From assembly GCF_053078305.1 (NCBI RefSeq), contig NZ_CP166878.1: a stretch of 32,715 bases of DNA; one strand, written 5' to 3'. The stretch comes from a plasmid. Below the pieces are notes generated by a model that searched no databases, was not told where the DNA came from, and worked only from the letters and a program-made list of their open reading frames with translations. The translations under genes were made by a program, and so were the position numbers. Of this stretch, positions 1 to 18,506 are shown piece by piece (the first letter of the stretch is position 1; each line of letters starts with the position of its first letter).

Positions 1-1866
1 ATGCAAGCAAATGATGAGTTTCTTCGCTTGGTTTTTGAAAACATATGGCCATGGTGGACATATGCCTGGGTTTTAGTTTTTTCTTTGTTATGTGTGTTTA
101 CATTTTCGGGTCATGCAGAAAAAAGTGGTGATAAGAGTACTCTGCGTTTCATTATTGAAGCAGCCAGGAAGAAATTACTTGTTGCATGGATTTTATGTAC
201 TCTTTTGTTCTTTCTATTTGTGTACATAATAGCGTGGAAACACTTTGGGGAAGATTCACATAAAGCATCACTTTATATGGAGTTATTGTATGAGCGGATT
301 GGTGACAAATCTTTCTCATTTGGTGATTATTGTGGTATAGCATTTGTGCTACTTTTTCCCTATGCCTGTCAGATAATTAATCGCCGTCTTATAAGACCAA
401 AACTATCATCATGGCTTCGTCGTTTTCGTGTGTCTCAGACCTCGGATACTATGAGTGATATTCGTGTTGAGAAAGGTAAATATTCGCCTAAAAACTTCAA
501 TCCTTTAGATTATTATAAGGATGGTCATTTCTTTTTAGGATTAGATGAAAATGATAAAGCAATCTACGTTACAGATGACTATTTGTCTAAAGTAAATATT
601 AAAATTTTAGGCGCAACGCAAACGGGTAAAGGTGTTATTCAGGGGGTTATTGCAGACCAGGCAATATTGAAAAATTGGGGTTTGTGGTTCTGGGATCAGA
701 AACCAGATAAATTTATTTACTCGATTATGAAACAACGTTGTGAGTCAGAGGGGCGAGAAATATATGAAGTTGATTTGAATGGTGAAGGTATAGGTGATTA
801 TGCGCCATTTAAGAATGGTACAAAACGTGAAATTTTGGATAGGTTTTTTAATGCGTTTTCTCTTGAGACTGGCGGGACTGATGCAGACTATTACAAAAAT
901 AATGCACAGGAGGTTATGTACTATATATATACTTTTTGGGACCGTTCGTTAAACGATTTACAAAAATTGTTGTCTGGTAGTGATGATAGAATACCGGAGG
1001 AAAAACAGGAATGGATAGCTAAAAATGGAGCTAATATTCGAACGCAGCTTAATAAATGGTTAGAGCTTCCTTGTCTATCTCCCGCTGATGGTCAGGGATT
1101 AAATGTAACTGAACTGGTTAAGTCAGGTGCGGTTATTTATGTAAAAGGTAGCACAAAAGATAAGGTTGTCAGGGCTGTCTTAAAATCAATGTTGCGTGAG
1201 TGGTCTGCGGCTGTTATTCGTGAACAACCAAAAAATCATGTGTTGGGGATAATTGATGAGGCCCGTTTTGTTATCTCGTCAGAGGTTGCTGATAGTCTGG
1301 CAACTATATTATCCTCAAATGCAAGTTTGTCTATTGCATATCAAGAGAGAGATGACCTTTTAAATATACCGGATGAAAAACCGCAGATTGCTCAGTCAAT
1401 AAAAAAAGGGACGGAAACAAATACCAATTTGACACTTGTTTATCGTTGTAATGACGAGACGGCTGAATGGGTTGCCAAAAATTCTGGTACAACTGCGAAG
1501 AGTCTGACAAAACTTGAAGAAGTCGAAACTGACGGTTATGGCGCGGAAACATGGAAGGGACGACGAATGATTGGACAGGAAGAGGATTACTATATACCAG
1601 TAAATACGGTTCTTGCAGTTGAAGAACGAGTTGGTATTATGCAGACTATGTTTGAACTCAGTCGGGTTTTATTTACATGCTGGGTTCCTGTTCAACGTTT
1701 TTATACACTTCCGGCCCGCCCTCAAACGGAGCACGATAATGTTCAGGATTGTATAAAGAATGATGGTTCAATTTCTCCGAGTGATGAGGATTACTTTAAT
1801 CCTGACATGATTAGTGATGAAGAGCTAGCGATGATAAATAAAACAGTATCGTCAGACAGTAAATAA
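1..1866 (+). CDS. virD4: Type IV secretion coupling protein (VirD4/TraG-family ATPase)
   Basis: 621-aa ORF with Walker A-like GATQTGKG and Walker B-like hydrophobic-DE (LGIIDEARFV), N-terminal hydrophobic segments. ORF begins at window edge, so the true start may lie upstream. Confidence 0.7.
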   Translation: MQANDEFLRLVFENIWPWWTYAWVLVFSLLCVFTFSGHAEKSGDKSTLRFIIEAARKKLLVAWILCTLLFFLFVYIIAWKHFGEDSHKASLYMELLYERIGDKSFSFGDYCGIAFVLLFPYACQIINRRLIRPKLSSWLRRFRVSQTSDTMSDIRVEKGKYSPKNFNPLDYYKDGHFFLGLDENDKAIYVTDDYLSKVNIKILGATQTGKGVIQGVIADQAILKNWGLWFWDQKPDKFIYSIMKQRCESEGREIYEVDLNGEGIGDYAPFKNGTKREILDRFFNAFSLETGGTDADYYKNNAQEVMYYIYTFWDRSLNDLQKLLSGSDDRIPEEKQEWIAKNGANIRTQLNKWLELPCLSPADGQGLNVTELVKSGAVIYVKGSTKDKVVRAVLKSMLREWSAAVIREQPKNHVLGIIDEARFVISSEVADSLATILSSNASLSIAYQERDDLLNIPDEKPQIAQSIKKGTETNTNLTLVYRCNDETAEWVAKNSGTTAKSLTKLEEVETDGYGAETWKGRRMIGQEEDYYIPVNTVLAVEERVGIMQTMFELSRVLFTCWVPVQRFYTLPARPQTEHDNVQDCIKNDGSISPSDEDYFNPDMISDEELAMINKTVSSDSK

Positions 1867-2987: not shown

Positions 2988-3000
2988 ACATTTAGCATTA

Positions 3001-3080
3001 TATGCTTATATGCTTATATGCTTATATGCTTATATGCTTATATGCTTATATGCTTATATGCTTATATGCTTATATGCTTA
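3001..3080. repeat. Perfect tandem octamer microsatellite (TATGCTTA x10)
   Basis: Ten uninterrupted head-to-tail copies of TATGCTTA directly readable in sequence, starting 14 bp after the virB11 stop. Confidence 0.95.
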
Positions 3081-3105
3081 TATCATTGTGTTTGTGTGAA
3101 ATATT

Positions 3106-5508: not shown

Positions 5509-8109
5509 ATGGGGCAGAGCTATAACGAACATCTGAATCTGGCAGGCATCGAACAACATTCCGGGCAGGTGTATACCTATACTGGAGGTGCTTTTGGTGC
5601 TATTGAACTGACAGGTGTTGATCCAACGGGTGTTACCCCTTCTCAGGGTAGCCGTATTTCTTTATTACTTCGTAATATCGTTCAGTTACTGCCCCTTTCT
5701 GTCACACTGACTCAGTATTATATCCATAATGACGGCGTTAAGATCCGGCTGACAGGGCGTGATAATCAACGCAGTCAGTTACTTTCTATGCGTCGCCAGG
5801 CATATCTTAATAAATGTCGTAATTTAAATGCCTCAAGAATTATATGGACGCTGGATGTTCACCCGGAAGAGAATATTAATCGCCTGGCATCTGCCGAGTT
5901 TTTAAAGAATCTTTTTAACAGCATGTTTGATGACACAGCCAGACGTAAAGTCAGGCTGGCACTGTCAAATCGCGAATCGTTTATCATTGAGCGTCAGGCA
6001 TTTGAAAAACAGTGCCTGTTGCTGAAAGAAACATTACGCGATCTGGACTTACGCCTTTCTTTTATTTCAGAAGATAACAGGATTCTTGATTCAGAAGGGA
6101 TCTGGCGATTACAGAAGTTCCTTGCAACATTTAATCACCATTGGCTGGCTCCACGCCGTAAGGTCACTGTACCCAATGATATGTGGGATTGTCTGGCGAT
6201 TGAAGGTGACGATATCGAGGCCATTACCTGGCGTGGCGTTGATATGTTGAAGATCCAGGGGGTACGGCCTGTTTATGTTCGCCTGGCCAGTGTGTTGAAA
6301 ATAGGCGATGAATCTGTACCGGAATGTGCCTGGGCGCTGACAAATGGCAGACCAGTTTTACAGCGGGGTAACTACGTTTACTTCATGCGGTTCACTCCCG
6401 CCAGTGCCTTTAAGAAGTCACTGATGATCAGCGGGAAAGAAAACGAACTTGTCAGGACTCAAATCAGTTTGAGCGATTTAATGACTGACAGTACGAGCAA
6501 AGATATTCTCGATGAAAAATTGCGCAGAAATTCACATCTGATGAAGATGCGCGAAGAACTGGAGAATATTTCATATTCAGATGAGCGCCTGGGGATCTGC
6601 CAGGCCGGGATTGCTGTATTTAATACAGATCCCGATAAATTACTTGAGACTTGTGCGGATATTAACCGTAGTGTCTCTCAGACCATGCAAGTTGTATGGG
6701 AGACGGTAGCACAACTGGATGCTTACAAGGTTATGCAACCAGCCTACTCACGCAATACATTTCGTGCATTACAGCTTAACGCATCTCAGATGGGGGCGGC
6801 ATCCTTGTTCTTTAAATCCCATCCAGGTATTCCTGAATGGGAGCTAAATGGACGCATGGAGGAAGCCTTCTATATTCTTGAATCAGATGATGGCGTGCCG
6901 TTTTTCTTTACGCCAAAAGTTAAAGAAAAGCTACTGCTTCTTGGTAATGGGGCGACCCGTGGCGGCAAGACTTTTATGAAAAACTGTATTGCCAGCCATT
7001 TTATTAAATTCGGTGGTCTGTATAACTGTCTGGATATCGATCCTGGCTCTATCCCAATGGCTAATTTCTTTGGGGATGATGGGGCAGCATTTACCCTTGA
7101 TAGCGATTTTCAGTGTGGTTTTAACATGTTCAGTATGGCGCAAAGCAAGGATGACAGGGTATTTCTTGCGCATCTTATAGAGCAGTTAAAAGCAATGGCA
7201 GCAGAAAATGACAGTGAGCAGGATAAATATTTAACGCCTGATGAACTTGAAAATATAACAGTGTGTGCGAGTGATCTTCTTGTACAAAAATTTTCGCCGA
7301 ATGAGGGGCGTTTAAGCTCAATCACGTTGTCAACGCTGGTTTCTAAGTGTGGTCAGAGCGTTAAACGCAAGTTAGCGCCATTTATTAGTAATGGTATTTA
7401 TGGACGTTTATTTGATAACAAAGAGGACGCGATTGGTGTTCTTGATAAGCCGGTAGCTGTTTACAACCTTTCAGGTGTGAAAGATAACCATAATCTTGCG
7501 CGGCTTGTGCACCGTGAAATCTTCTTTCGTGTCGTTCGTTTGTTTGAATCACCGGAATATCGCACGATACCAAAGTTTTTTGAAATAGATGAGGCACAGT
7601 ACACCCTGTCTGTACCACATGCCGCAGAGTTCGCTACACAGAAAGCCCGAACCTGGTTTAAGCATGGTGGGGGTATGGGATTCTGGACTCAGAACCCGGA
7701 GCACTATTCATCACTGGATGAGTGGACTACGTTACGTTCCTCGGCGTCGGTGTTTATCTTTATGCCGGATAATGAGGCAACAGTTAAAGCATTCCATGAT
7801 GCTTATGGCTTCGATGAAGAAGAAGTGAATATTATTCGCAGCCTTAAGGTAAAACAGCAGTCGTATATAAAGATCCCGGACATGCAGATTGCAAAAGTGG
7901 TGAATCTGTTTGTTGAGGCTGAACAGTATGCTGTTTGTACATCAACGTCTAATGAAGCAGCCCTGGCAGCGGAAATATGGAAACGTGAATCAGATCCCGA
8001 TGTTGCAGTGCGACAGATTGTAGAAGGTCTGATAACGAAGTGTAATAAGGACTTGATCCCAACGCCTACAGAGACTGAAAAGGATAAAACGGAGGGGTTT
8101 TTCTTATGA
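5509..8109 (+). CDS. virB4: VirB4-family T4SS ATPase
   Basis: 866-aa ORF, Walker A GNGATRGGKT, size and position typical of VirB4/TrbE; RBS GAGGTGA. Confidence 0.9.
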   Translation: MGQSYNEHLNLAGIEQHSGQVYTYTGGAFGAIELTGVDPTGVTPSQGSRISLLLRNIVQLLPLSVTLTQYYIHNDGVKIRLTGRDNQRSQLLSMRRQAYLNKCRNLNASRIIWTLDVHPEENINRLASAEFLKNLFNSMFDDTARRKVRLALSNRESFIIERQAFEKQCLLLKETLRDLDLRLSFISEDNRILDSEGIWRLQKFLATFNHHWLAPRRKVTVPNDMWDCLAIEGDDIEAITWRGVDMLKIQGVRPVYVRLASVLKIGDESVPECAWALTNGRPVLQRGNYVYFMRFTPASAFKKSLMISGKENELVRTQISLSDLMTDSTSKDILDEKLRRNSHLMKMREELENISYSDERLGICQAGIAVFNTDPDKLLETCADINRSVSQTMQVVWETVAQLDAYKVMQPAYSRNTFRALQLNASQMGAASLFFKSHPGIPEWELNGRMEEAFYILESDDGVPFFFTPKVKEKLLLLGNGATRGGKTFMKNCIASHFIKFGGLYNCLDIDPGSIPMANFFGDDGAAFTLDSDFQCGFNMFSMAQSKDDRVFLAHLIEQLKAMAAENDSEQDKYLTPDELENITVCASDLLVQKFSPNEGRLSSITLSTLVSKCGQSVKRKLAPFISNGIYGRLFDNKEDAIGVLDKPVAVYNLSGVKDNHNLARLVHREIFFRVVRLFESPEYRTIPKFFEIDEAQYTLSVPHAAEFATQKARTWFKHGGGMGFWTQNPEHYSSLDEWTTLRSSASVFIFMPDNEATVKAFHDAYGFDEEEVNIIRSLKVKQQSYIKIPDMQIAKVVNLFVEAEQYAVCTSTSNEAALAAEIWKRESDPDVAVRQIVEGLITKCNKDLIPTPTETEKDKTEGFFL

Positions 8110-8924
8110 GAAAACAACTTGCAGTAGTCTTGTTTTCTGTAATGACAGGATTGATTACAACACCTGCTATTTCTGGCGTTCCTGTTGCGGATGCTGCTCA
8201 GATTCTTGGTCAGGCCAGGGCTATGATGCAGGATATCAAAAACTATAAAGAATATATGGAACAGACAATTCTCAATAATAAAGAATTGCTGGAAGCATAT
8301 AAGCAATACAACCAGATGCTTGAGGATTATAAGCAAATTTTACGTGAGGCCGAAGGGCTGAAAGATAAACTTTCATCGATTGACTATAAGAATTTTATGG
8401 ATGAAATAGCCCTTATCTCTAACCAGTTCGATCCCGTTTATGGCGGGGGGCGTATGGTTAAAAATACGGGTAATGCGCCGTGGGATAAAGCCTATGAGCG
8501 TAATTTGTTGCTTAATGGCTATGGGCTTACAAACGAAGAATATGCCGAAATGCTGGCAGCGATACCATATACGAGTGATGACCGCGAACGTGCCCGGCAG
8601 ATGTTTGAATATAGGCAGCGCAGGGTTGTTGAAGGGATTTCAAAAGATGCCTTTGTTGGTGAATTGCAAATACAATTAAAAAAGCAAGGAAAAACTCTAG
8701 GGGAATTACAGGAAAGACGTTTAAGGTTAGGTGATAACGATACGACAGCCTCTATCCAGTTTTTAGCTGAACAAAATGAACAACTGTTACAACAAATTCA
8801 GAGTTTACAGTTACAGCAAGCAGAGGCGATGAAATATAGTGGTCGTCTTGAGGATCACTATTTTAACAAGCGAGCGCAACAGGAAGAATTAAAGGCACGT
8901 CAGTTACAGAGGGCATGGCAATGA
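8106..8924 (+). CDS. VirB5-like secreted helical protein (minor pilus subunit candidate)
   Basis: Start overlaps virB4 stop (ATGA); signal peptide; helical/coiled-coil-rich 272 aa; positional inference. Confidence 0.5.
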   Translation: MRKQLAVVLFSVMTGLITTPAISGVPVADAAQILGQARAMMQDIKNYKEYMEQTILNNKELLEAYKQYNQMLEDYKQILREAEGLKDKLSSIDYKNFMDEIALISNQFDPVYGGGRMVKNTGNAPWDKAYERNLLLNGYGLTNEEYAEMLAAIPYTSDDRERARQMFEYRQRRVVEGISKDAFVGELQIQLKKQGKTLGELQERRLRLGDNDTTASIQFLAEQNEQLLQQIQSLQLQQAEAMKYSGRLEDHYFNKRAQQEELKARQLQRAWQ

Positions 8925-9388
8925 AAAAATATCTGATTCTTTTCTTCATGATGTTTTCAGCCTCGGCAATGGCTAAGATTGGCTATGTTGATGAGCATCA
9001 AAAGGAAGTTGACCTAAAAATTGACGCTCTGATTTCTAAATATGAAAAAGAATGTGAAGGTAAACGCAATAGTAATATGTGTAAATCCCAGGCATGGGAT
9101 AAGGCTCATTTTGAATATGAAGATGAATTTAGAGGCGAAGATAAATATAATCATAAGCATTATGATGGCCTGACAAAAGATCAGGCAGTCGCGAAGTTAC
9201 ATGAACTTATTAAATTGCATAATATTGTTTCTAAAGATGAACGCAATCCTGAAAGTTGGCCTGGAAAATTAGACACACTAACTATTAATGGTGAGATTAA
9301 CTATATAGTTAGAAAACACTGGCCAGCATGGATTAATCCATGTGATAAGATTTGTGCGGAACTGTTACTTAGACAAATAGGTAAATGA
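8921..9388 (+). CDS. Secreted protein between virB5- and virB6-like genes (possible entry-exclusion protein)
   Basis: Signal peptide MKKYLILFFMMFSASAMA; the equivalent position holds eex in pKM101-type clusters; function is inferred only from position. Confidence 0.4.
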   Translation: MKKYLILFFMMFSASAMAKIGYVDEHQKEVDLKIDALISKYEKECEGKRNSNMCKSQAWDKAHFEYEDEFRGEDKYNHKHYDGLTKDQAVAKLHELIKLHNIVSKDERNPESWPGKLDTLTINGEINYIVRKHWPAWINPCDKICAELLLRQIGK

Positions 9389-9429
9389 TGTAGCGTTTAA
9401 CAGGCTATATCTTTAATTTGGGGGCTATT

Positions 9430-10419
9430 ATGCTTCGAGGATTCTTTTTGTCTTTAATTAACAGACTCTTATTTGTAGTCCTGTTTTTATCTGTCTCATT
9501 TTATGCCAGTGCAGAAACAGCTATGCGCACAAACTTTCAGAATGGCGTAAGTGAGATGGTTAATAAAATACTAAATAGCCCGGATAGTGATTTACGTGTC
9601 TGGACTATTGCCGCATCAACTTTCCTGGCTGCGGTAACGGCATTCGTCTATTTCTGGCGGTTCGTGGAAAATGGTGGGGCGTTAGTTGATTTATTCACGC
9701 TTGCAATCATGTTTATGTTATCAATGTCATTGCTTGCTTCTTACTCAATGGTTGTTGATACTATCACAGGCGCTTTTTATGCGATATCAAATACACTACA
9801 GAAACTGGCGTTAGGTAATATTAAGCCGAGTTTTCTGCAAAATTTTGTAGAGGGCGTGTTAACAAAGGCTATTTCAGCACCATCGGTTGATATTTTTGAT
9901 GGCATGAATATGGTTGGCATGGCGCTCTTGTGGGAAATATGTTCTGCTATTTTGTCTGTTGCTATATATCTTGCTGATGTTTGGATTGATGTTGGGACAG
10001 CAATAGCAAAAATTACAGGTGTTATGTTTATTCCTTTTTTGGTTGCGCCAGCAACAAGAGGAATTTTTGATGGATGGTTTAAATTCTATATTGGATGGGG
10101 GCTTGCAGCGGTTGTACTTAAAATAACATCTATTGTGGTAATGATAATGATCAGGGCATCAATTAACTCTGCGGGTAGTTTCCAGGGCGCTGGCGATGTT
10201 ATCGCGTCAGATGGTACTGTTAATGGCGTTCTTAATATAACAGCTAATAATATCAGCTTGTTACGTGATATTTGTGCATATTCTGTAATCGCTGCAATTA
10301 TGGTGTTCAGTTGTTTTATATTTGCGTACATGATTGGTTCTGGTGTCGGCTCTGCAAGTCAGGGTTTGAATAATATGGCAGTAAAACTAGCCAAGAAAGC
10401 GGCTAAAGCATTATTGTAA
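9430..10419 (+). CDS. virB6: VirB6-like polytopic inner-membrane protein
   Basis: About 330 aa with multiple hydrophobic helices; ATG 9430 after GGGGG RBS (ORF track starts at TTG 9418). Confidence 0.65.
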   Translation: MLRGFFLSLINRLLFVVLFLSVSFYASAETAMRTNFQNGVSEMVNKILNSPDSDLRVWTIAASTFLAAVTAFVYFWRFVENGGALVDLFTLAIMFMLSMSLLASYSMVVDTITGAFYAISNTLQKLALGNIKPSFLQNFVEGVLTKAISAPSVDIFDGMNMVGMALLWEICSAILSVAIYLADVWIDVGTAIAKITGVMFIPFLVAPATRGIFDGWFKFYIGWGLAAVVLKITSIVVMIMIRASINSAGSFQGAGDVIASDGTVNGVLNITANNISLLRDICAYSVIAAIMVFSCFIFAYMIGSGVGSASQGLNNMAVKLAKKAAKALL

Positions 10420-11160: not shown

Positions 11161-11994
11161 ATGTTAGCGAAAAGAACTCTCTTATTTTCTGGAGTCCTGG
11201 CTGTTGTCATGACTACGTTCAGTGCAACAGCACAGCAATGTAGAGTGGTTAACTGGCGGCCTGGAACAATAGTTAAAGTGCAGTCCGCTTTATATCTGGG
11301 AACTCGTATAGAACTGCCGGAAGGCTCAATGTTATTAACGAAAGAACCCTTTTCTTCTAATGCGCTATGGGCCAGCACGGGAGCCGCAAATCAGGTCATG
11401 ATTCAGCCTACCAGCGAAGAGCCGGAAGGGCTGAAAACGATGGTAACAGTATTTATGACTAACGGGCAGACGCTGGATATTGAGGCTGTTCGGGTATCTC
11501 AGAACCAGAATCAACAGTGTGTTCAGATCCGTGGTGCAGGTATGCGTTCCGCAGACAGAAGTGCATTAAACACGGCTTACAGTATGGGAGCATCCGGGGC
11601 TGATGTGGCTCGTTTACAGAATGAAGTGAATACATTGCGGAGTAACAGAGAAAGCGAAGTCAAAAACGCAGTTCTTGAAGCTCTTCGTCGATACCGATAT
11701 TTCATTTATACCCGTTATAACTGGACGACAGGTAAAGGTTTTAGCGGAAAGAATATGATCTCTGATGTTTATGATGACGGGCGTTTTACTTATATCCGTA
11801 TCGCAAAACCGAATCGTGGATTACTTGCGGTACATGCAGATGTCGGAGGAAAACCAGCGGTTATTCCTACCAAGTACGACGATGCATATGCCATTTATCA
11901 TATGTCAGGGATATATCCCAAATTTACCCTTACCCTGGATGGCGTAAAGCTGGAAGTCAGCCGTGCGGATAATGCGACTGATGGGGAGAGCTAA
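11161..11994 (+). CDS. virB9: VirB9-like outer-membrane channel subunit
   Basis: Signal peptide, 277 aa, C-terminal beta-rich region; order B8-B9-B10. Confidence 0.7.
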   Translation: MLAKRTLLFSGVLAVVMTTFSATAQQCRVVNWRPGTIVKVQSALYLGTRIELPEGSMLLTKEPFSSNALWASTGAANQVMIQPTSEEPEGLKTMVTVFMTNGQTLDIEAVRVSQNQNQQCVQIRGAGMRSADRSALNTAYSMGASGADVARLQNEVNTLRSNRESEVKNAVLEALRRYRYFIYTRYNWTTGKGFSGKNMISDVYDDGRFTYIRIAKPNRGLLAVHADVGGKPAVIPTKYDDAYAIYHMSGIYPKFTLTLDGVKLEVSRADNATDGES

Positions 11995-11996
11995 TT

Positions 11997-13403
11997 ATGG
12001 AAGAACGTCAGGAGAAAGTAGAAGAAAAACCAGCTACTTACCGTAAAAAAATACAGTATTACGCTTTTGGTACTTTTGGTGTGATCCTGGTAATTCTTTT
12101 TATCAATATGGTGATAAGTATTGCCTCAAGGAACGAGGAAGAACCAAAGGAAAATGCGAAACAGGAAACTGCCAGCACTGCGCCAAATACAACGGAAAAG
12201 TTTAATGCGTTACTGAAAAACAGTGGTGCACGTCCTTCTGCCTCCGTTAATCAGGCTAATACGGTTGGAAATAAGGATAGTGCCAGTAATGGAAATCCGA
12301 ATAGTGAAACAGATAAAAAACCTGTTCACCCTTACAGCCGGGAAAAAGAGGCGTCTCAGGAGAGGGGGGCGAGAGCAAGTGATGCGGGGTCACCTGATGA
12401 AATCAGGGCACGCTTTAAGGCTGATGAGATTAACCGAGCACTGCGTGCCAGGTCAGATAAAACAAATTTTGACAGCACTAAAAATACGGTTGCGGGTAGT
12501 GGTAATGCATATGCCCCGGCAGCATCGTTTACCGGAAACCGGACTAATGCGCAGCGTATCAGCGATATAAACGCAGAGCAGAATGGATTGCAGGAACGTA
12601 TCCAAATGATGGAATCAAAAGTTCGTGCTGATGAAGCCGCTTTGCCTGGACGACTGGAAGAAGCCCGGATACGTGGGGAACAGCAATTTGCAGAAGCCCG
12701 ACAGGGTGGAGCAGGAAGTAACGCGACATCGGTAACTAAGGGGAGTACCCAGAGCGTACCGTCCGGTGTTGTGGGATATACAGCCAGTAATCCTTATGGG
12801 GCAAGTGTTGATGGAATGATGAAGTTGCCAGTAGGTACGGTCCTGAATGCCATTACCACATTTACGGCTATTTCTGATTATTCCGGCGGCTCAATGAAGG
12901 CCATGCTTACGCATGATATCTATGATGCGACGCATAGCTACATTCTTGCGCCTAAAGGAAGTGAGTTCGTTATCAGGGTCGTTAAAGCCTCCCAGGTAAA
13001 CGAAATCCTTCAAAGCCGTATTGGATTCCAGGTTACATGGCTTGTATTGCCTGATGGTAACAGGGTCGATTTTAAAACCTCGTCGTCTCTTGACCGAATG
13101 GGGACTCCGGCGGTTGAAGGCGATGAGGTGGACAGGCATTTGCTCGCTCAGTTTCTTGGCGTAGCGGCCTATGCCCTTGTGGGGACGAAAACCAGCTACG
13201 AAGGCTCAGGTGATAGTAACGAGAGTTTTGCCGGGAATTTTGGCGAAGGCGCTCGTACTCAGGCAGGAAATATCGCTCAAAAATACCTCCAGGTTGTGCC
13301 TACAACAACGTTACATGCGGGAGCACCGATCAGGGTCTTTACCGAAGATGAGATATACATGAAGCCGTGGAGAAATATTTATGAAACGGATTATACGGGC
13401 TGA
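11997..13403 (+). CDS. virB10: VirB10-like protein
   Basis: 468 aa, N-terminal TM, Pro/Glu/Ala-rich linker, C-terminal beta-barrel-like domain. Confidence 0.75.
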   Translation: MEERQEKVEEKPATYRKKIQYYAFGTFGVILVILFINMVISIASRNEEEPKENAKQETASTAPNTTEKFNALLKNSGARPSASVNQANTVGNKDSASNGNPNSETDKKPVHPYSREKEASQERGARASDAGSPDEIRARFKADEINRALRARSDKTNFDSTKNTVAGSGNAYAPAASFTGNRTNAQRISDINAEQNGLQERIQMMESKVRADEAALPGRLEEARIRGEQQFAEARQGGAGSNATSVTKGSTQSVPSGVVGYTASNPYGASVDGMMKLPVGTVLNAITTFTAISDYSGGSMKAMLTHDIYDATHSYILAPKGSEFVIRVVKASQVNEILQSRIGFQVTWLVLPDGNRVDFKTSSSLDRMGTPAVEGDEVDRHLLAQFLGVAAYALVGTKTSYEGSGDSNESFAGNFGEGARTQAGNIAQKYLQVVPTTTLHAGAPIRVFTEDEIYMKPWRNIYETDYTG

Positions 13404-13875
13404 AATATTGTTTTTTGCTGCATTCTTTGCATTTTCCTGTCAGGCAGCAAGAAGTCCTTTCCAGGTAGACAGGATGCGAGAAAGTGCGCCTGTTCAGATA
13501 TCACAGCAGGATGTGCATGTGCAGGGAAACTTTCAGGAGTTACAACCACTGGACAGGAACCAGAAAGATCCTCGCTGGCAGTATATCGATCCGTTGAGTG
13601 TTTACATGCGTACAGTTTGGCCCGATAACATCAGGACTATCAGAGCAGCGGTGAACTATCTCCTTGAACCAACAGGATATCGCCTGGTAACGAGTCATCC
13701 GGCACCGCGTGAGGCTTCCCTTCTTGTTGATAAGCCATTACCGCCAATTGCCAGAATGCAACGCACAATGCCCGTAGTTGATGCTCTTCAGTTGCTGGTT
13801 GGGCTTGATAATTATGTTGTTATTGATCGTGCCCACAGGCTGGTTTCATTTCAGAAAAATGGGGGCGGTGTATGA
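13381..13875 (+). CDS. Hypothetical exported protein within T4SS cluster
   Basis: Signal peptide MKRIIRAEILFFAAFFAFSCQA; 164 aa; overlaps virB10 end by 23 nt; no family recognised. Confidence 0.45.
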   Translation: MKRIIRAEILFFAAFFAFSCQAARSPFQVDRMRESAPVQISQQDVHVQGNFQELQPLDRNQKDPRWQYIDPLSVYMRTVWPDNIRTIRAAVNYLLEPTGYRLVTSHPAPREASLLVDKPLPPIARMQRTMPVVDALQLLVGLDNYVVIDRAHRLVSFQKNGGGV

Positions 13876-14096
13876 AGGAATGGTGTATGCGGATTATTTT
13901 TGTTGCTTTCCTGGCTATTGCAACGGTGATTCTTTGCTTATTTATGACGGGGTGTGCACAACGTTATGAGAGTGGTCATGATCAGCTTTTCGAACTGTCA
14001 GAACGCCATATCATTTACCGGGATCTGACTGTTCCGGCATCGATGAGCAATTTGCCGGAGAAGCAGCAGATAAGCGTACCGGGGATTGAGCCGTGA
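13872..14096 (+). CDS. Small lipoprotein (VirB7-like candidate)
   Basis: Lipobox LFMTGC after hydrophobic leader; 74 aa; start could instead be ATG 13887. Confidence 0.45.
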   Translation: MKEWCMRIIFVAFLAIATVILCLFMTGCAQRYESGHDQLFELSERHIIYRDLTVPASMSNLPEKQQISVPGIEP

Positions 14097-14770
14097 ACGT
14101 CCGGTTAATTTTCATGCTGGCGTTTCTGATATCTGGCGGTATCAGCGCATCAACGGATGAAGAAATTCTACTGGCGTCGATAACCGCGCCAGGAGTTACC
14201 AGCTTTACCGATGAATCACCTTCTTCGGAATGGATTACAGCGATGCAGGGACGTTGGGGGAGTACAACTGATATGAAGGATATGCGTAGTTTGCGCGAGA
14301 TAAGAGAAGCGGTGATTGCTGAAATTAATGCCGTATCAGAGCCGGTGGTGGAGAAAACAGGGCCAGAAAACAAAGAATCGACCACAGGAATAAAAATATC
14401 TGAAAAAATACAGGCGATAATCAATAAATACGCAGAAAAATATCAAATTAGTGAAACTTTGTTGAAAGCGTTAATTAAAACGGAGTCTGGATTTAATCCA
14501 AACGCTGTCAGCAGAAAAGGTGCAAAGGGACTGATGCAGTTAATGCCTGTACATACCAAAAGGCATAATGCTGATCCCTTTGATGTTGAAACCAATGTGA
14601 AAATTGGTACAGGGCATCTTTCATATCTTCTCGATAAATACGGGGATTTACGGCTTGCTCTGGCTGCATATAACGCTGGGGAAGGTGCTGTTGATAAATA
14701 TGGCGGTATCCCCCCTTATAAGGAAACACAACAGTATGTAAATAAGATCATGGCAATGTTAGGAGGTTAA
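14093..14770 (+). CDS. virB1: Lytic transglycosylase (VirB1-like, SLT domain)
   Basis: SLT catalytic motif region ALIKTESGFNPNAVSRKGAKGLMQLMP and AYNAGEGAV; GTG start. Confidence 0.8.
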   Translation: MNVRLIFMLAFLISGGISASTDEEILLASITAPGVTSFTDESPSSEWITAMQGRWGSTTDMKDMRSLREIREAVIAEINAVSEPVVEKTGPENKESTTGIKISEKIQAIINKYAEKYQISETLLKALIKTESGFNPNAVSRKGAKGLMQLMPVHTKRHNADPFDVETNVKIGTGHLSYLLDKYGDLRLALAAYNAGEGAVDKYGGIPPYKETQQYVNKIMAMLGG

Positions 14771-14772
14771 AT

Positions 14773-15132
14773 ATGACAAAAATAAAGATACTGATATTTG
14801 CAGCTTTTGTCTCATTTGGAACCGTGCATAGCGCCAGCGCGGAAAATGGAAGTGATGCTCTGTCACTGACAGGAGAATTTCTTGAGCAACCTGTTAACAG
14901 TAGTGATCCATGTACTGTTTTTCTCTGTATGGCTGGAATGCTTAAGGGGGAATCGCCTGGTGAATGTAGTGGGGCAAAGAAAAAATTTTTCAGCATTATC
15001 AAAAGGAAGCATGGCAGTTTTCATCCAGGAAGAACATTTAATGCCCGGAAAGCGTTTCTTGGTGATTGTCCGTCAGCACCTGGAGATATTGTAGGCAAGA
15101 TACTTGATAAATACGGAAAATTACGCTGGTAA
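14773..15132 (+). CDS. Hypothetical Cys-rich exported protein
   Basis: Strong AGGAGG RBS, signal peptide ending HSASA; 119 aa; unknown function. Confidence 0.5.
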   Translation: MTKIKILIFAAFVSFGTVHSASAENGSDALSLTGEFLEQPVNSSDPCTVFLCMAGMLKGESPGECSGAKKKFFSIIKRKHGSFHPGRTFNARKAFLGDCPSAPGDIVGKILDKYGKLRW

Positions 15133-15665: not shown

Positions 15666-15818
15666 CTACGGGGATGATAATACCCATGAGGTTGATACTT
15701 GGCAGAGTCAGCTTGTGGGCATTATCAGGGGACTATAAAAGCCCATTTAAATTGTATTTAAATCATCCGGTAACGGCAAGAAAAATAATGTGTCATTCAG
15801 GCATAAGTGCAGGGCCAT

Positions 15819-16787
15819 ATGATTAGTCCGGCAATTGATTATTTTGCGGCAAACTTGCCATACCGACCTTATCACGCGAATGAATTGCTCTATGGGCTTC
15901 GTATCGATAAGGCAGCTAAAGCAGTGCTGGCGCGTTATATACAGCATAATCCACCTCATGCAATGTACTGGCTTGTTTTTGACGTTGACAGGCCAGTTGC
16001 GGCGATTGACTGGAATGATCTTAATGCGCCCACACCTAATTTTACGGTCAAAAATCCGGTTAATGGTCATGCACACCTGTTTTATGGGTTAAAAACGGCA
16101 GTTCGTGTTGCCAAAGACGGTAGCATTAAGGCGATCGAGTTTGCTGCTGCGGTAGAGCGAGGATTACGTGACAAACTTAAATCAGATATCGGCTATGCAG
16201 GGCTGATCTGTAAAAATCCTCTCCATACATGCTGGCAGGTTGTTGAATGGCGTGGAGAACTTTATGAGTTAGCTGAACTGGCTGATTATGTTGATTTGTA
16301 CGCGTCAACAGCGGCTAACGATGAACAGGCATTCGATATCGACTTTAGTTATGGGCTTGGGCGAAATTGTTGGCTCTTCAATCTGACCCGTATCTGGTCA
16401 TATACAGCAATCCGGCAGGGCTGGCCTGATTTCCCGCAATGGAAAGAAGCGGTGATTCAGCGTGTCGAAATGTATAACGTGCAGTTAAGCGTGCCTTTGT
16501 CTCACAAAGAATGTGTATGCATTGGCTCCAGCATCGCCAAATGGACGCATAGACGCTTCACTGAAGCTGGATTTGAGCAATATGTAGCTGATACCCATAC
16601 ATCAGAAATTCAGGCTCGTAGAGGGCGTAAGAATCGCTCAGAAGTGCAGGCTGCTAAGGGGCGTAAAGGTGGGAAAATATCTAAAAGAGGGATTGTTGAG
16701 GATTCTGCGCGGAGTTTGAAACCGTGGGTAGAGTTAGGGATCAGTCGGGCAACCTATTATCGACGTAGGGCAAATGAGACCAAATAA
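15819..16787 (+). CDS. ColE2-type plasmid replication initiator (primase-type Rep, Replicase family)
   Basis: N-terminal region YRPYHANELLYGLRIDKAAKAVLARYIQHNPPHAMYWLVFDVDR is characteristic of ColE2-like Rep proteins as I recall them; basic HTH-like C-terminus; origin-like sequence overlaps the stop. Confidence 0.65.
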   Translation: MISPAIDYFAANLPYRPYHANELLYGLRIDKAAKAVLARYIQHNPPHAMYWLVFDVDRPVAAIDWNDLNAPTPNFTVKNPVNGHAHLFYGLKTAVRVAKDGSIKAIEFAAAVERGLRDKLKSDIGYAGLICKNPLHTCWQVVEWRGELYELAELADYVDLYASTAANDEQAFDIDFSYGLGRNCWLFNLTRIWSYTAIRQGWPDFPQWKEAVIQRVEMYNVQLSVPLSHKECVCIGSSIAKWTHRRFTEAGFEQYVADTHTSEIQARRGRKNRSEVQAAKGRKGGKISKRGIVEDSARSLKPWVELGISRATYYRRRANETK

Positions 16788-16815: not shown

Positions 16816-17015
16816 TCTTGATCCTTGCAGACAGATCCTTTGCCTTTAGTGATCTTCCGATTTTCAGGTATTGAGTCTTTTATGAGAGAGATGATAGCGC
16901 CCGCCGCAGCCCCAGCGACCGAACCGCCAGGTGAGCGAGTAGGCGAGGAGGCGCAAGGGAGTCAGAGGTTGATGTTTGCACTTACGCTCGATGTTTGAGC
17001 ACGGCAAGAAGACAA

Positions 17016-17291
17016 ATGGAGAGTATGATGATGGTCTGTATACTTGTTGTGTCAAATAACGGTCGGGAAGAATTGATTGATTTTAATCCCGATCATGATT
17101 TAGCGCACATTATCAAATCATACCGGACACCAGAAAACAGGATGGTATGTATTATCCAGGATGGTAAGCGCATTCTTCGTTGGGATCGCAGTTATGCTTC
17201 CCGTGCAAAAAATCACTGGCGTAAGGTAGATCCAGACAGTTTTGAGATTTTAGGGTCTGTTGAATATCTCCGCTATGTTGGTCAGGGTTAG
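17016..17291 (+). CDS. Hypothetical protein (91 aa)
   Basis: ORF from ATG 17016 (track begins at TTG 16995); no family recognised; stop abuts the Tn21-like repeat. Confidence 0.35.
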   Translation: MESMMMVCILVVSNNGREELIDFNPDHDLAHIIKSYRTPENRMVCIIQDGKRILRWDRSYASRAKNHWRKVDPDSFEILGSVEYLRYVGQG

Positions 17292-17649: not shown

Positions 17650-17710
17650 CAACCCCCTGATATCTCTCTTAGAGCTTTTGCGGGGCCAAAGAAGATAATC
17701 AGGGGGTCCA
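17650..17710 (+). promoter_or_regulatory. Long stem-loop in repA leader (candidate antisense-RNA target)
   Basis: Arms CCCCCTGATATCTCTCTT / AAGAAGATAATCAGGGGG around an 18-nt loop containing GCCAA (one base off the conserved IncFII/IncB loop hexamer); location upstream of leader peptide and repA. Confidence 0.45.
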
Positions 17711-17743
17711 AAGCAGGCTTTTGCCTGTAAAGGATTATAGCAA

Positions 17744-17800
17744 ATGCATTTTTCAATACAAGACTACTGCCCGGCAATAAGTGCGGGCGGTGGTGGCTGA
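17744..17800 (+). CDS. Leader peptide overlapping repA start (translational coupling candidate)
   Basis: 18-codon ORF MHFSIQDYCPAISAGGGG whose stop lies 17 nt inside repA, the arrangement seen for tap/repY-type leader peptides. Confidence 0.45.
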   Translation: MHFSIQDYCPAISAGGGG

Positions 17801-18506
17801 AAAGAACAATTCCTTAATCCCCCGCATATCGCCGTCAGGGGTGGCCAAACAAAGTCCATGCTATAACGTTGTGTCGCGTAAGCGACGCCGTTTCCTCAAT
17901 CGCTGGATTAAATCGCTGGCGACGGTCGCTGGGCGTGTCAAAATCAAAAACGAACTCCGCCGCCGTATCCGGCATAACCGATATTGGGTTAATGAGGCTA
18001 ACAAGTTTGGCATAGAGGCACTTTGCGAACTGATGTTAGCTATCCTGGATGATCTCGATTTACGCTCCTGGGAAACCAGGCATAACCTCGAAACACTGGC
18101 AGAACGTGCCGGACTGGTGACACGCAGTGACGCGGGGCGTAAATCTATTTCCCGTGCCAGTAGGGGATGTGATCGCCTGGTCTGGTTGAATGCGATCATT
18201 ACAGATAAAGCGCCGTTTAACCCCTATGATGCACGGTGTGCCTGTAAACACATTGAAGTAACCGAAGACTTCTTTGCCATACTCGGCATTCCGTTAAAAC
18301 TGGTTTATCGGGAACGTGCCAGGCTGTTAAAGGCAGATCCTAATGAAATGATTTACTCCGGGGATGCCAGACTGATAGCTATCAGAGTCCAGAACTGGAC
18401 ACGGAAAGCGGCAGCCGGATTAGCCCGGATGAAAGCGAAACGCGACGCAGCTCGACAACGCAAAAAAGAATATTACGCTCACCCACCTACCCCTATTCCG
18501 GTCTGA
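17781..18506 (+). CDS. repA: IncFII-family replication initiator RepA
   Basis: Segment LETLAERAGLVTRSDAGRKSISRASRGCDRLVWLNAIIT aligns with the RepA1 core of R100-type proteins (SITTLAIECGLATESAAGKLSITRATRALTFLSELGLIT); GTG start right after an in-frame stop. Confidence 0.75.
   Translation: MRAVVAEKNNSLIPRISPSGVAKQSPCYNVVSRKRRRFLNRWIKSLATVAGRVKIKNELRRRIRHNRYWVNEANKFGIEALCELMLAILDDLDLRSWETRHNLETLAERAGLVTRSDAGRKSISRASRGCDRLVWLNAIITDKAPFNPYDARCACKHIEVTEDFFAILGIPLKLVYRERARLLKADPNEMIYSGDARLIAIRVQNWTRKAAAGLARMKAKRDAARQRKKEYYAHPPTPIPV

What the first reader, a model, noticed from the sequence alone, without database searches (positions are those of the whole stretch)
13381..15132. Unassigned exported proteins embedded in the T4SS cluster
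Besides the recognisable VirB homologues, the cluster carries three exported proteins (13381-13875, 13872-14096 lipoprotein, 14773-15132 Cys-rich) and one between the virB5- and virB6-like genes (8921-9388). These are candidate entry-exclusion, secretin-pilot or recipient-recognition factors specific to this system.
Basis: inference. Interest (0 to 1): 0.3.

Follow-up and report, generated by a model that had tools for sequence, protein, structure and literature searches.

The report
Accessory exported proteins of a plasmid T4SS
The four "unassigned" exported proteins in this E. coli plasmid's DNA-transfer machine are real and conserved; by homology, fold or sequence features they are most likely an entry-exclusion protein, a small outer-membrane lipoprotein anchor, a ring-forming N0-fold partner for it, and an adhesin-like helper, so the finding is mostly ordinary with one structurally interesting twist.

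Summary
The window is essentially a whole ~30-kb E. coli plasmid carrying a divergent VirB/Trb-like T4SS of the pKPC_UVA01 type. All four ORFs are real. They have signal peptides, are under purifying selection, and keep their positions from Enterobacterales to Pseudomonas.

- **8921-9388** is the orthologue of pKPC_UVA01 "trbK", an experimentally proven entry-exclusion gene. In E. coli it occurs as two old alleles (78% aa identity) on near-identical backbones, linked to a variable patch in the VirB5/TrbJ-like gene.
- **14773-15132** is a short TrbM/KikA/Pep-family protein. It passes the Pfam threshold and has the four hallmark cysteines.
- **13887-14096** is a small lipoprotein (47-aa mature form) with a highly conserved (H/N)V(I/V)YRDLT motif. 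It is the missing VirB7 equivalent by inference only; there is no profile hit.
- **13381-13875** is a non-lipidated periplasmic protein of the PilL/TcpQ/BfpG family. Its modelled N0 fold (pLDDT 92) most resembles DotD, the Xanthomonas VirB7 globular domain and BfpG.

There is no secretin on the plasmid, so "secretin pilot" is wrong. The likeliest role of the last two is a two-gene version of an N0-bearing VirB7 that decorates the VirB9/VirB10 outer-membrane complex.

Interest is modest.

The parts
8921..9388 (+). X157: exported 155/157-aa protein between the virB5/trbJ-like and virB6/trbL-like genes; orthologue of the pKPC_UVA01 TrbK entry-exclusion protein. The ORF may also start at 8915.
   Evidence: The signal peptide has no lipobox. 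The family contains 36 proteins, all from this plasmid family, with no Pfam, NCBIfam or PDB hit. It is 31% identical to the pKPC-type 152-aa protein (E 3e-13). It has the same position and overlaps as described for trbK in PMC8923210. A Pseudomonas homologue sits at the same position (hhalign 95%). E. coli carries two alleles, 7 plasmids with A and 7 with B. dS is 0.85 against 0.01-0.06 in the backbone.
8600..8810 (+). Variable patch inside the VirB5/TrbJ-like gene (8106-8924), roughly aa 187-223, which co-segregates with the X157 allele.
   Evidence: Sliding identity against L020 falls to 56-64% only at about 8650-8750 and 9000-9350, within an otherwise ~100% identical 11-kb backbone. The same 7 of 14 E. 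coli plasmids carry the divergent form of both patches.
13381..13875 (+). PilL/TcpQ/BfpG-family periplasmic protein: signal peptide, variable linker, then a ~100-aa N0-fold domain. It overlaps the virB10 stop by 23 nt.
13887..14096 (+). Small lipoprotein; the ORF is open from 13872. Lipobox LFMTG-C, mature form 47 aa, conserved motif G-x-(L/F)F-x-L-(S/T)-x-R-(H/N)-V-(I/V)-Y-R-D-L-T-x-P...N-x-P-E. Proposed VirB7 equivalent.
   Evidence: The alignment of 16 family members is. There is no Pfam or NCBIfam family hit. Distant relatives have the same motif in a 45-aa lipoprotein (L023). In L022 the same motif is in a lipoprotein fused to a weak TcpQ-like domain. Size and lipobox match the VirB7 definition in PMC3093366. 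No other VirB7 candidate exists in the cluster.
14093..14770 (+). Lytic transglycosylase (VirB1-like). Given as context; it is part of the same translationally coupled block.
   Evidence: Pfam SLT, E 5.6e-31.
14773..15132 (+). Short TrbM/KikA/Pep (MpfK) family protein: Sec signal plus a four-cysteine domain.
   Evidence: Pfam TrbM PF07424 scores 34.8 bits against a gathering score of 21, but covers only profile positions 10-58 of 156. RefSeq names it TrbM/KikA/MpfK. C47, C52, C65 and C99 are invariant in relatives, and four disulfide-forming cysteines are the family hallmark (PMC13311141).
11161..13403 (+). virB9 (11161-11994) and virB10 (11997-13403): proposed outer-membrane-complex partners of the lipoprotein and the N0 protein.
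   Evidence: Pfam CagX, E 1.2e-10, and TrbI, E 2.6e-22.

Best explanation
The four ORFs are genuine Sec-exported components of a divergent VirB/Trb-like conjugative T4SS of the pKPC_UVA01 type. Each has a separate role.

1. **8921-9388** is the entry-exclusion protein (TrbK_pKPC_UVA01 orthologue). It is dispensable for transfer. When present, it blocks entry of a plasmid of the same exclusion type. Two ancient alleles circulate on one E. coli backbone.
2. **13887-14096** is the VirB7-type lipoprotein. [quoted passage not shown] Its extended, conserved (H/N)V(I/V)YRDLT segment binds the VirB9 C-terminal domain, the N0 protein, or both.
3. **13381-13875** is a soluble periplasmic N0-fold subunit, a paralogue of the type IVb pilus secretin partners PilL/TcpQ/BfpG. 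The lipoprotein recruits it into a peripheral ring around the VirB9/VirB10 outer-membrane core. Together the two genes do what the single N0-bearing VirB7 of Xanthomonas or DotD of Legionella does.
4. **14773-15132** is a short TrbM/KikA/Pep-type, disulfide-stabilised accessory protein that enhances mating.

What is shown: the genes, signals, conservation, synteny, family and fold assignments, orthology to the tested trbK, and the allele dimorphism. What is inferred: every physical interaction and every function in this particular plasmid.
For: **Context.** The window matches ten ~30-kb E. coli plasmids at 97-99%. The cluster encodes VirB11, VirB3/2-like proteins, VirB4, VirB5/TrbJ-like, VirB6, VirB8, VirB9, VirB10 and SLT. 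The related pKPC_UVA01 T4SS (46-62% identity for the four shared T4SS-associated proteins compared, against 31% for the exclusion protein) transfers at about 1e-4. Its trbJ and trbL are essential (PMC8923210).

**Exclusion protein.** It is orthologous to the tested gene. It is the fastest-evolving protein of the cluster. It is dimorphic on otherwise identical backbones, with dS 0.85 against ~0.03.

**Lipoprotein.** The lipobox is conserved, the mature form is 47 aa, and the motif is invariant from E. coli to Pseudomonas. This fits the VirB7 definition. In L022 the same motif-bearing lipoprotein carries a TcpQ-like domain, which is the Xanthomonas VirB7 architecture.

**TrbM-like protein.** It scores above the Pfam gathering threshold and has the four hallmark cysteines.
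Against: No interaction was tested. Both structure-prediction jobs went on the N0 protein, so neither a VirB9-lipoprotein nor an N0-lipoprotein complex was modelled.

The lipoprotein has no profile hit to any VirB7 family. It lacks the P-[ILV]-N-K motif of pKM101 TraN. It lies after virB10 rather than between virB6 and virB8.

The exclusion orthologue is only about 31% identical to the tested protein. Neither protein has the lipobox cysteine that the published paper implies.

MOB-suite types the window's plasmid family as non-mobilizable, and I found no relaxase. Whether this particular plasmid still conjugates, and so whether exclusion matters for it, is unknown.

The TrbM match covers only a third of the Pfam profile, and the gene was not detected in the Pseudomonas-group relatives (L007-L016).
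Confidence: 0.7

Rival explanations
1. The PilL-like gene, and perhaps the lipoprotein, is a leftover of a type IVb (R64 thin-pilus-like) pilus cluster once linked to this T4SS. It has no role in the T4SS itself, or it works only with a chromosomal or co-resident secretin. This is the true 'secretin pilot/partner' reading.
For: The protein belongs to the PilL/TcpQ/BfpG family, whose characterised members bind lipoprotein secretins. The plasmid also keeps an isolated pilI-like gene at 16995-17291. In the metagenomic relative L022 the T4SS cluster runs straight into a complete TcpQ-secretin-PilO-ATPase-pilin cluster.
Against: The window and its close relatives have no secretin or other pilus-assembly gene. 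The gene is kept immediately after virB10, overlapping it, in every relative examined, with or without a pilus cluster. It is one of the most conserved genes of the cluster, with dN/dS 0.04-0.09. L022 has a separate bona fide TcpQ next to its secretin in addition to the post-virB10 copy.
Confidence: 0.1
2. The 157-aa protein is not primarily an exclusion factor. It is a periplasmic partner, chaperone or co-adhesin of the VirB5/TrbJ-like pilus-tip protein. The dimorphism would then reflect selection on recipient or phage recognition rather than on exclusion groups.
For: Its alleles co-segregate perfectly with a variable patch in the adjacent VirB5-like gene. It is not a lipoprotein and is twice the size of classical TrbK/Eex proteins. 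In pKPC_UVA01 the protein is also needed in the donor for exclusion to be seen, which implies a donor-side presence on or near the apparatus.
Against: Deleting the pKPC_UVA01 orthologue changed transfer frequency by about 2- to 4-fold at most, while the cloned gene in recipients gave 200-400-fold exclusion. The two patches lie within ~300 bp of each other, so linkage may be purely physical. dN/dS of 0.15 gives no sign of positive selection.
Confidence: 0.15
3. The 74-aa lipoprotein is not a VirB7 analogue. It is an independent small lipoprotein, for example a second exclusion or immunity factor, or a regulator or anchor of the adjacent lytic transglycosylase.
For: It has no VirB7 profile hit, no PVNK motif, and a non-canonical gene position directly upstream of and overlapping the SLT gene. 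Classical exclusion proteins of VirB/Trb systems are small lipoproteins.
Against: Its core motif is nearly invariant across genera, the opposite of what exclusion or immunity factors show; compare X157. The cluster otherwise lacks any VirB7 candidate, and VirB7 is needed to stabilise VirB9/VirB10 in studied systems. In L022 it is fused to an N0/TcpQ-like domain, as in Xanthomonas VirB7.
Confidence: 0.12

Closest known systems
TrbK of pKPC_UVA01 (entry exclusion; Kamruzzaman, Mathers & Iredell 2022, PMC8923210)
   Same: It occupies the same slot between the trbJ/virB5-like and trbL/virB6 genes. Size is similar (151-152 against 155-157 aa), and both have a Sec signal and conserved residues, including two cysteines. 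Homology is detectable (31% identity, E 3e-13; the profile search retrieves both groups). The rest of the T4SS is syntenic.
   Different: Identity is only about 31%. Exclusion has not been tested for the window's protein. The window's lineage is dimorphic (78% aa identity between alleles), with a linked VirB5 patch. By my reading of the sequences neither protein has a lipobox Cys, although the paper calls the signal lipoprotein-like.
Xanthomonas citri VirB7 (XAC2622) and Legionella DotD: T4SS outer-membrane lipoproteins carrying an N0 domain
   Same: These are the N0-fold hits closest in kind to the 13381 protein. Their logic is a lipid anchor, a short extended segment and an N0 domain decorating the VirB9/VirB10 (or DotC/DotH) outer-membrane complex.
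   Different: In the window the lipid anchor with its extended motif and the N0 domain are two separate polypeptides. They are encoded N0-first, after virB10. The N0 protein has its own SPase-I-type signal and no sequence similarity to VirB7_XAC or DotD (9-15% identity in structural alignments). No bacterial-killing effectors were looked for or seen.
BfpG / TcpQ / PilL (type IVb pilus secretin partners; PMC12531336)
   Different: There is no secretin on the plasmid. The score is below the family cut-off and there is no Pfam TcpQ hit. The gene is embedded after virB10 in a T4SS operon. Where a pilus cluster is present (L022) it has its own separate TcpQ.
TrbM (RP4/R751), KikA (R388), Pep (pKM101), TivB12 (R6K)
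   Same: It hits Pfam TrbM above the gathering threshold. It has a Sec signal and four conserved cysteines: C-x4-C-x12-C-x33-C here, C-x4-C-x9-C-x28-C in RP4. Like R6K TivB12 it is short and lacks the C-terminal extension.
   Different: It is 119 aa against 199 aa. Only about a third of the Pfam profile aligns. It is far below the NCBIfam TrbM equivalog cut-off (26.6 against 259 bits). Its function here is untested.
VirB7 / TraN (pKM101) small lipoproteins
   Same: It has a signal peptide with a lipobox and a mature length of 47 aa (VirB7s are typically 30-45 aa). It is encoded within the T4SS operon and is the only candidate for this role.
   Different: There is no sequence or profile similarity and no PVNK motif. 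The gene lies after virB10 rather than between virB6 and virB8. Binding to VirB9 was not tested.

Membership tests
TrbK_pKPC_UVA01-type entry-exclusion protein | Gene located between the trbJ/virB5-like and trbL/virB6-like genes of the T4SS operon | tested here: met
   8921-9388 lies between 8106-8924 (weak TrbJ/T4SS hits) and 9418-10419 (TrbL/VirB6). The arrangement is the same in pKPC_CAV1857-43 and pECAZ161_KPC.
TrbK_pKPC_UVA01-type entry-exclusion protein | Sequence homology to the characterised 151-aa protein | tested here: met
   tblastn gives 30.7% identity over 127 aa, E 2.8e-13. The profile of the window's group retrieves the pKPC-type group at E 1e-50. The alignment has 32 invariant columns.
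TrbK_pKPC_UVA01-type entry-exclusion protein | Exclusion activity in recipients, dependent on the C-terminus | not testable with these tools
   Only known for the pKPC_UVA01 protein.
Classical TrbK/Eex small inner-membrane lipoproteins (RP4, IncN) | Lipobox cysteine; about 60-80 aa; profile similarity | tested here: not met
   There is no Cys in the first 46 residues. The protein is 155-157 aa. There is no Pfam or NCBIfam hit at E<=1.
PilL / TcpQ / BfpG family (NCBIfam TIGR03748, Pfam PF10671) | Profile match above the curated cut-off | tested here: not met
   TIGR03748 scores 45.5 bits (E 6.5e-12) against a cut-off of 64.15. Pfam TcpQ gives no hit. Of the wider relatives, 127 of 146 match TIGR03748 at E<=1e-3, but only 2 match Pfam TcpQ.
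PilL / TcpQ / BfpG family (NCBIfam TIGR03748, Pfam PF10671) | Signal peptide plus a single N0-like fold domain | tested here: met
PilL / TcpQ / BfpG family (NCBIfam TIGR03748, Pfam PF10671) | Encoded with, and partnering, a type IVb pilus lipoprotein secretin | tested here: not met
   There is no secretin or pilus-assembly gene in the window or in the annotated sister plasmids. The gene is always next to virB10.
VirB7 (T4SS outer-membrane lipoprotein) | Signal peptide with lipobox; mature length about 30-45 residues; encoded in the T4SS locus | tested here: met
   Lipobox LFMTG-C28 is conserved in 16 sequences. The mature form is 47 aa. The gene lies within the operon.
VirB7 (T4SS outer-membrane lipoprotein) | Sequence or profile similarity to known VirB7/TraN proteins, including the P-[ILV]-N-K motif | tested here: not met
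   There are no Pfam or NCBIfam hits. The motif is absent from the mature sequence. VirB7s are known to be highly divergent.
VirB7 (T4SS outer-membrane lipoprotein) | Binds the VirB9 C-terminal domain and stabilises VirB9/VirB10 | not tested
This needs a multimer model or an experiment.
N0-bearing T4SS lipoproteins (Xanthomonas VirB7, DotD) | Lipid anchor and N0 domain in one polypeptide | tested here: not met
   They are two separate genes in the window. A fused form (lipobox + motif + weak TcpQ-like domain, Pfam E 8e-4, below cut-off) exists in relative L022.
TrbM / KikA / MpfK (Pfam PF07424) | Profile match at or above the gathering score | tested here: met
   34.8 bits against a gathering score of 21, E 2.1e-8, but only profile positions 10-58 of 156 align. 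The NCBIfam equivalog PRK13893 scores 26.6 against 259, so that test is not met.
TrbM / KikA / MpfK (Pfam PF07424) | Sec signal peptide and four conserved disulfide-forming cysteines | tested here: met
   C47, C52, C65 and C99 are invariant in 9 family members. The hallmark is described in PMC13311141. Disulfide formation itself was not tested.

The most novel reading that the evidence does not exclude
This widespread plasmid T4SS lineage, which includes the KPC vector pKPC_UVA01, has recruited a paralogue of the type IVb-pilus secretin partner (PilL/TcpQ/BfpG). It uses it as a free periplasmic N0 subunit that a conserved mini-lipoprotein clamps onto the VirB9/VirB10 core: a 'split VirB7' not yet described for conjugative VirB-type machines. 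Separately, the variable patch of the VirB5/TrbJ-like protein would be the long-sought donor-side specificity partner of the TrbK-type exclusion protein. That would define two exclusion groups among otherwise identical E. coli plasmids.
Probability: 0.3. Interest if true: 0.55.

Novelty: new variant of a known kind. Interest (0 to 1): 0.35.

Why it matters
The same T4SS family drives the spread of blaKPC on pKPC_UVA01-type plasmids, so knowing its full parts list matters for any attempt to block transfer.

The work assigns probable roles to three genes that RefSeq mostly calls "hypothetical". It corrects a truncated start and a "type VI secretion protein" label.

It links a tested exclusion gene to a much wider family with two co-existing alleles, which makes exclusion-group specificity directly testable.

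The N0-protein and mini-lipoprotein pair would add a third way, after the Xanthomonas VirB7 fusion and DotD, in which T4SS outer-membrane complexes acquire an N0 ring. It also points to an evolutionary exchange between type IVb pilus and T4SS gene clusters.

Tried and rejected
- **First structure model.** The first AF2 run on the full-length 164-aa protein, with 26 close homologues, was unusable (pLDDT 51.7). It was replaced by a 146-sequence alignment from the exhaustive profile search.
- **Solved-structure sequence searches.** Searches with the 164-aa protein, its domain profile, the 157-aa family profile and the 621-aa ORF gave only chance-level hits.
- **Profile libraries.** Pfam and NCBIfam gave nothing meaningful for the 157-aa and 74-aa proteins.
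- **Foldseek.** Against the PDB it ranked DotD, Xac VirB7 and BfpG first, but with non-significant E-values. The AFDB50 library was unavailable.
- **Secretin-pilot reading.** Rejected because there is no secretin.
- **N0 protein as a lipoprotein.** The AFSC sequence suggested it, but the Cys is absent in nearly all homologues.
- **Positive selection on the exclusion gene.** Rejected: dN/dS is 0.15 with dS 0.85. This points to exchange of old alleles, not recent diversification.
- **Literature.** Searches for a PilL/TcpQ-like subunit in VirB-type T4SSs found nothing.


Full report
**What the window is.** The 32.7-kb window matches ten circular ~28-35-kb E. coli plasmids at 97-99% identity over 51-100% of the 8-kb query (full length in six). 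MOB-suite types all of them as non-mobilizable.

One strand carries a T4SS cluster:
- a VirB11-type ATPase (1923-2987)
- ccdAB
- VirB3-like and VirB2-like genes
- VirB4 (5509-8109)
- a VirB5/TrbJ-like gene (8106-8924)
- the 157-aa ORF
- VirB6/TrbL, VirB8, VirB9, VirB10 (to 13403)
- the 164-aa ORF, the 74-aa ORF, an SLT lytic transglycosylase (14093-14770) and the 119-aa ORF
- then ssb and a replicase

Most of the VirB matches are weak. This is a divergent system.

**Check of the observation.** All four ORFs are present, and each begins with a signal-like hydrophobic segment. They are packed without gaps:
- the 164-aa ORF overlaps the virB10 stop by 23 nt;
- the 74-aa ORF overlaps its predecessor's stop (ATGA), although Met6 at 13887 is the start shared with relatives;
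- the SLT ORF overlaps the lipoprotein's stop.

Orthologues in the same order occur in Klebsiella and Citrobacter plasmids, Huaxiibacter, Morganella, several Pseudomonas, Stutzerimonas, and Marinobacter/Halopseudomonas assemblies. Substitution patterns show strong purifying selection.

**The gene between virB5 and virB6 (8921-9388).** It has no Pfam, NCBIfam or PDB relative. Sequence and profile searches of 5.8 billion proteins return only 36 proteins, all from this plasmid family. A very divergent homologue sits in the same slot in Pseudomonas plasmids (hhalign probability 95%).

The family includes the 152-aa gene of the pKPC_UVA01-type plasmids. Its size, its one-base overlap with the upstream gene and its GenBank distribution match the published description of pKPC_UVA01 "trbK". 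The paper reports (PMC8923210):
- the cloned gene excludes the plasmid 200-400-fold when expressed in recipients;
- its C-terminus is required;
- it is dispensable for transfer;
- it is needed in the donor as well.

The window's protein is about 31% identical to it. Entry exclusion is therefore the best-supported function.

One point differs from the paper. Neither protein has a cysteine in its signal region, so neither can be a lipoprotein by the lipobox rule.

**A dimorphic exclusion module.** Contig L020 is ~100% identical to the window over 11 kb, except for two patches. One lies in the 3' half of the VirB5-like gene and the other covers most of the 157-aa gene.

Synonymous divergence there is 0.85 (0.30 for virB5 as a whole), against 0.01-0.06 in the neighbouring genes. 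dN/dS is 0.15. These are old alleles moved by recombination, not recent positive selection.

Among 14 complete E. coli plasmids, seven carry each allele. The same seven carry the matching VirB5 patch. The N0 and lipoprotein genes stay 98-99.7% identical in all 14.

Across the whole family this protein is the least conserved of the cluster, followed by VirB6, VirB5 and the TrbM-like protein. This is what a specificity determinant should look like. It raises the untested idea that the VirB5/TrbJ patch is its donor-side partner.

**The Cys-rich 119-aa protein (14773-15132).** It passes the Pfam TrbM gathering score (34.8 against 21 bits), although only the N-terminal third of the profile aligns. 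RefSeq names it TrbM/KikA/MpfK.

Its four cysteines (47, 52, 65, 99) are invariant in relatives. Their spacing mirrors the four disulfide-forming cysteines that define the family in RP4 TrbM (PMC13311141).

That paper describes the family as Sec-exported and adhesin-like. Members enhance conjugation and conjugation-associated killing. R6K TivB12 is a short member lacking the C-terminal extension, as here. This is a new, short member of a known family.

**The 74-aa lipoprotein (13887-14096).** No profile hits it. Its lipobox, its 47-residue mature length and a remarkably constant motif, G-x-(L/F)F-x-L-(S/T)-x-R-(H/N)-V-(I/V)-Y-R-D-L-T-x-P...N-x-P-E, are conserved from E. coli to Pseudomonas. 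More distant metagenomic relatives have the same motif (L023).

The cluster has no other VirB7 candidate. VirB7 proteins are defined as small lipoproteins of 30-45 mature residues that wrap the VirB9 C-terminal domain (PMC3093366).

I therefore read it as the VirB7 equivalent. This is an inference: it lacks the TraN PVNK motif and sits after virB10.

**The 164-aa protein (13381-13875).** NCBIfam's ICE PilL2 domain matches at E 6.5e-12 but below its cut-off; Pfam gives nothing. An exhaustive profile search found 392 representative relatives. Of 146 tested, 127 match the PilL2 model and only two match Pfam TcpQ.

- secretin N0 domains, TonB-dependent-receptor signalling domains and phage baseplate hubs

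Foldseek ranks DotD, Xanthomonas VirB7 and BfpG first, without statistical significance. The protein is not a lipoprotein, because the Cys is not conserved.

It follows virB10 in every relative examined. It is among the best-conserved genes of the cluster: 41-57% identity to the Pseudomonas-group loci, against 33-47% for VirB10 and 38-41% for VirB4.

No secretin exists on the plasmid. That excludes the pilot or partner role its family name suggests.

**How the pair probably works.** BfpG and TcpQ are signal-peptide-plus-N0 proteins. They bind an extended segment next to the lipid anchor of a lipoprotein secretin by strand addition and form a ring (PMC12531336).

Xanthomonas VirB7 combines a lipobox, a short VirB9-binding segment and an N0 domain that forms an extra ring on the core complex. 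It is needed for VirB9/VirB10 stability (PMC3093366).

In the metagenomic relative L022, the lipoprotein with the same HVAYRDLT motif is fused to a weak TcpQ-like domain (Pfam E 8e-4, below cut-off). It lies between the post-virB10 N0 gene and a complete TcpQ-secretin-pilus cluster.

The simplest reading has three steps:
- the mini-lipoprotein anchors in the outer membrane;
- it binds VirB9 and/or the N0 protein through its conserved strand;
- the N0 protein then forms a peripheral ring.

This would be a two-gene version of an N0-bearing VirB7, probably derived from a type IVb pilus secretin partner. None of these contacts was tested here.

**Verdict.**
- Exclusion is right for 8921-9388 and already known in a relative.
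- Recognition or adhesion is plausible for the TrbM-like protein.
- Secretin piloting is wrong.

Most of the finding resolves into known kinds. The split N0/lipoprotein arrangement and the two-allele exclusion module are modestly new and testable.

I found no paper in the held library describing a PilL/TcpQ-like subunit in a VirB-type T4SS. That is weak evidence of absence.

Noticed in passing
window 2998-3083: A perfect tandem array of an 8-bp unit (TTATATGC x 10.8, 100% matches) lies immediately after the virB11 stop and before ccdA. Its function is unknown; it could be a binding-site array or a slippage-prone spacer.
   Followed up: no
window 1-1866: A 621-aa ORF just upstream of virB11 has no Pfam hit. 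It has a weak match to the SXT TraD coupling-protein model (E 8e-7, residues 135-257). It is 45.5% identical to the 661-aa 'hypothetical protein' of pKPC_UVA01-type plasmids, so it is probably a very divergent T4CP.
   Followed up: partly
whole window: I recognised no relaxase, and MOB-suite types all sister plasmids as non-mobilizable. The related pKPC_UVA01 type is called 'mobilizable, MOBC' yet is experimentally self-transmissible. The window has no homologue of that plasmid's ParB-N-domain protein.
   Followed up: partly
window 16995-17291: An isolated pilI-like gene (R64 thin-pilus operon; Pfam PilI in sister contig L020) sits downstream of the replicase gene with no other pilus gene nearby. 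It may be a remnant of a type IVb pilus cluster like the one adjoining the T4SS in L022.
   Followed up: partly
window 15807-16787 and 17651-18506: There are two replication modules: a Replicase-family (PF03090) initiator, and an IncFII/IncL-M-like RepA preceded by a PK-repBA regulatory pseudoknot (Rfam RF01089, 86 bits, 17651-17778).
   Followed up: no
window 8106-8924 and 13381-13875 (annotation in public records): In several GenBank/RefSeq records the VirB5/TrbJ-like gene is labelled 'type VI secretion protein'. The PilL-like gene is started at an internal Met, which removes its signal peptide.
   Followed up: yes
L001/L017 (NZ_CP054365.1 28022-30010): In sister plasmid pSCU-171-2 an IS3-family element is inserted in the virB11 gene, splitting it. 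At least some members of the family therefore carry an inactivated T4SS.
   Followed up: no
L025/plasmid hits: The pKPC_UVA01-type trbK also falls into two sequence classes among 78 plasmids: 37 at >=99% and 41 at 90-95% nucleotide identity (93.5% in the three listed). This echoes the dimorphism seen in the E. coli lineage, though the classes are much less divergent.
   Followed up: no
L007:11254-11562: In Pseudomonas relatives the slot after the SLT gene holds an unrelated Cys-rich exported 102-aa protein instead of a detectable TrbM homologue.
   Followed up: no
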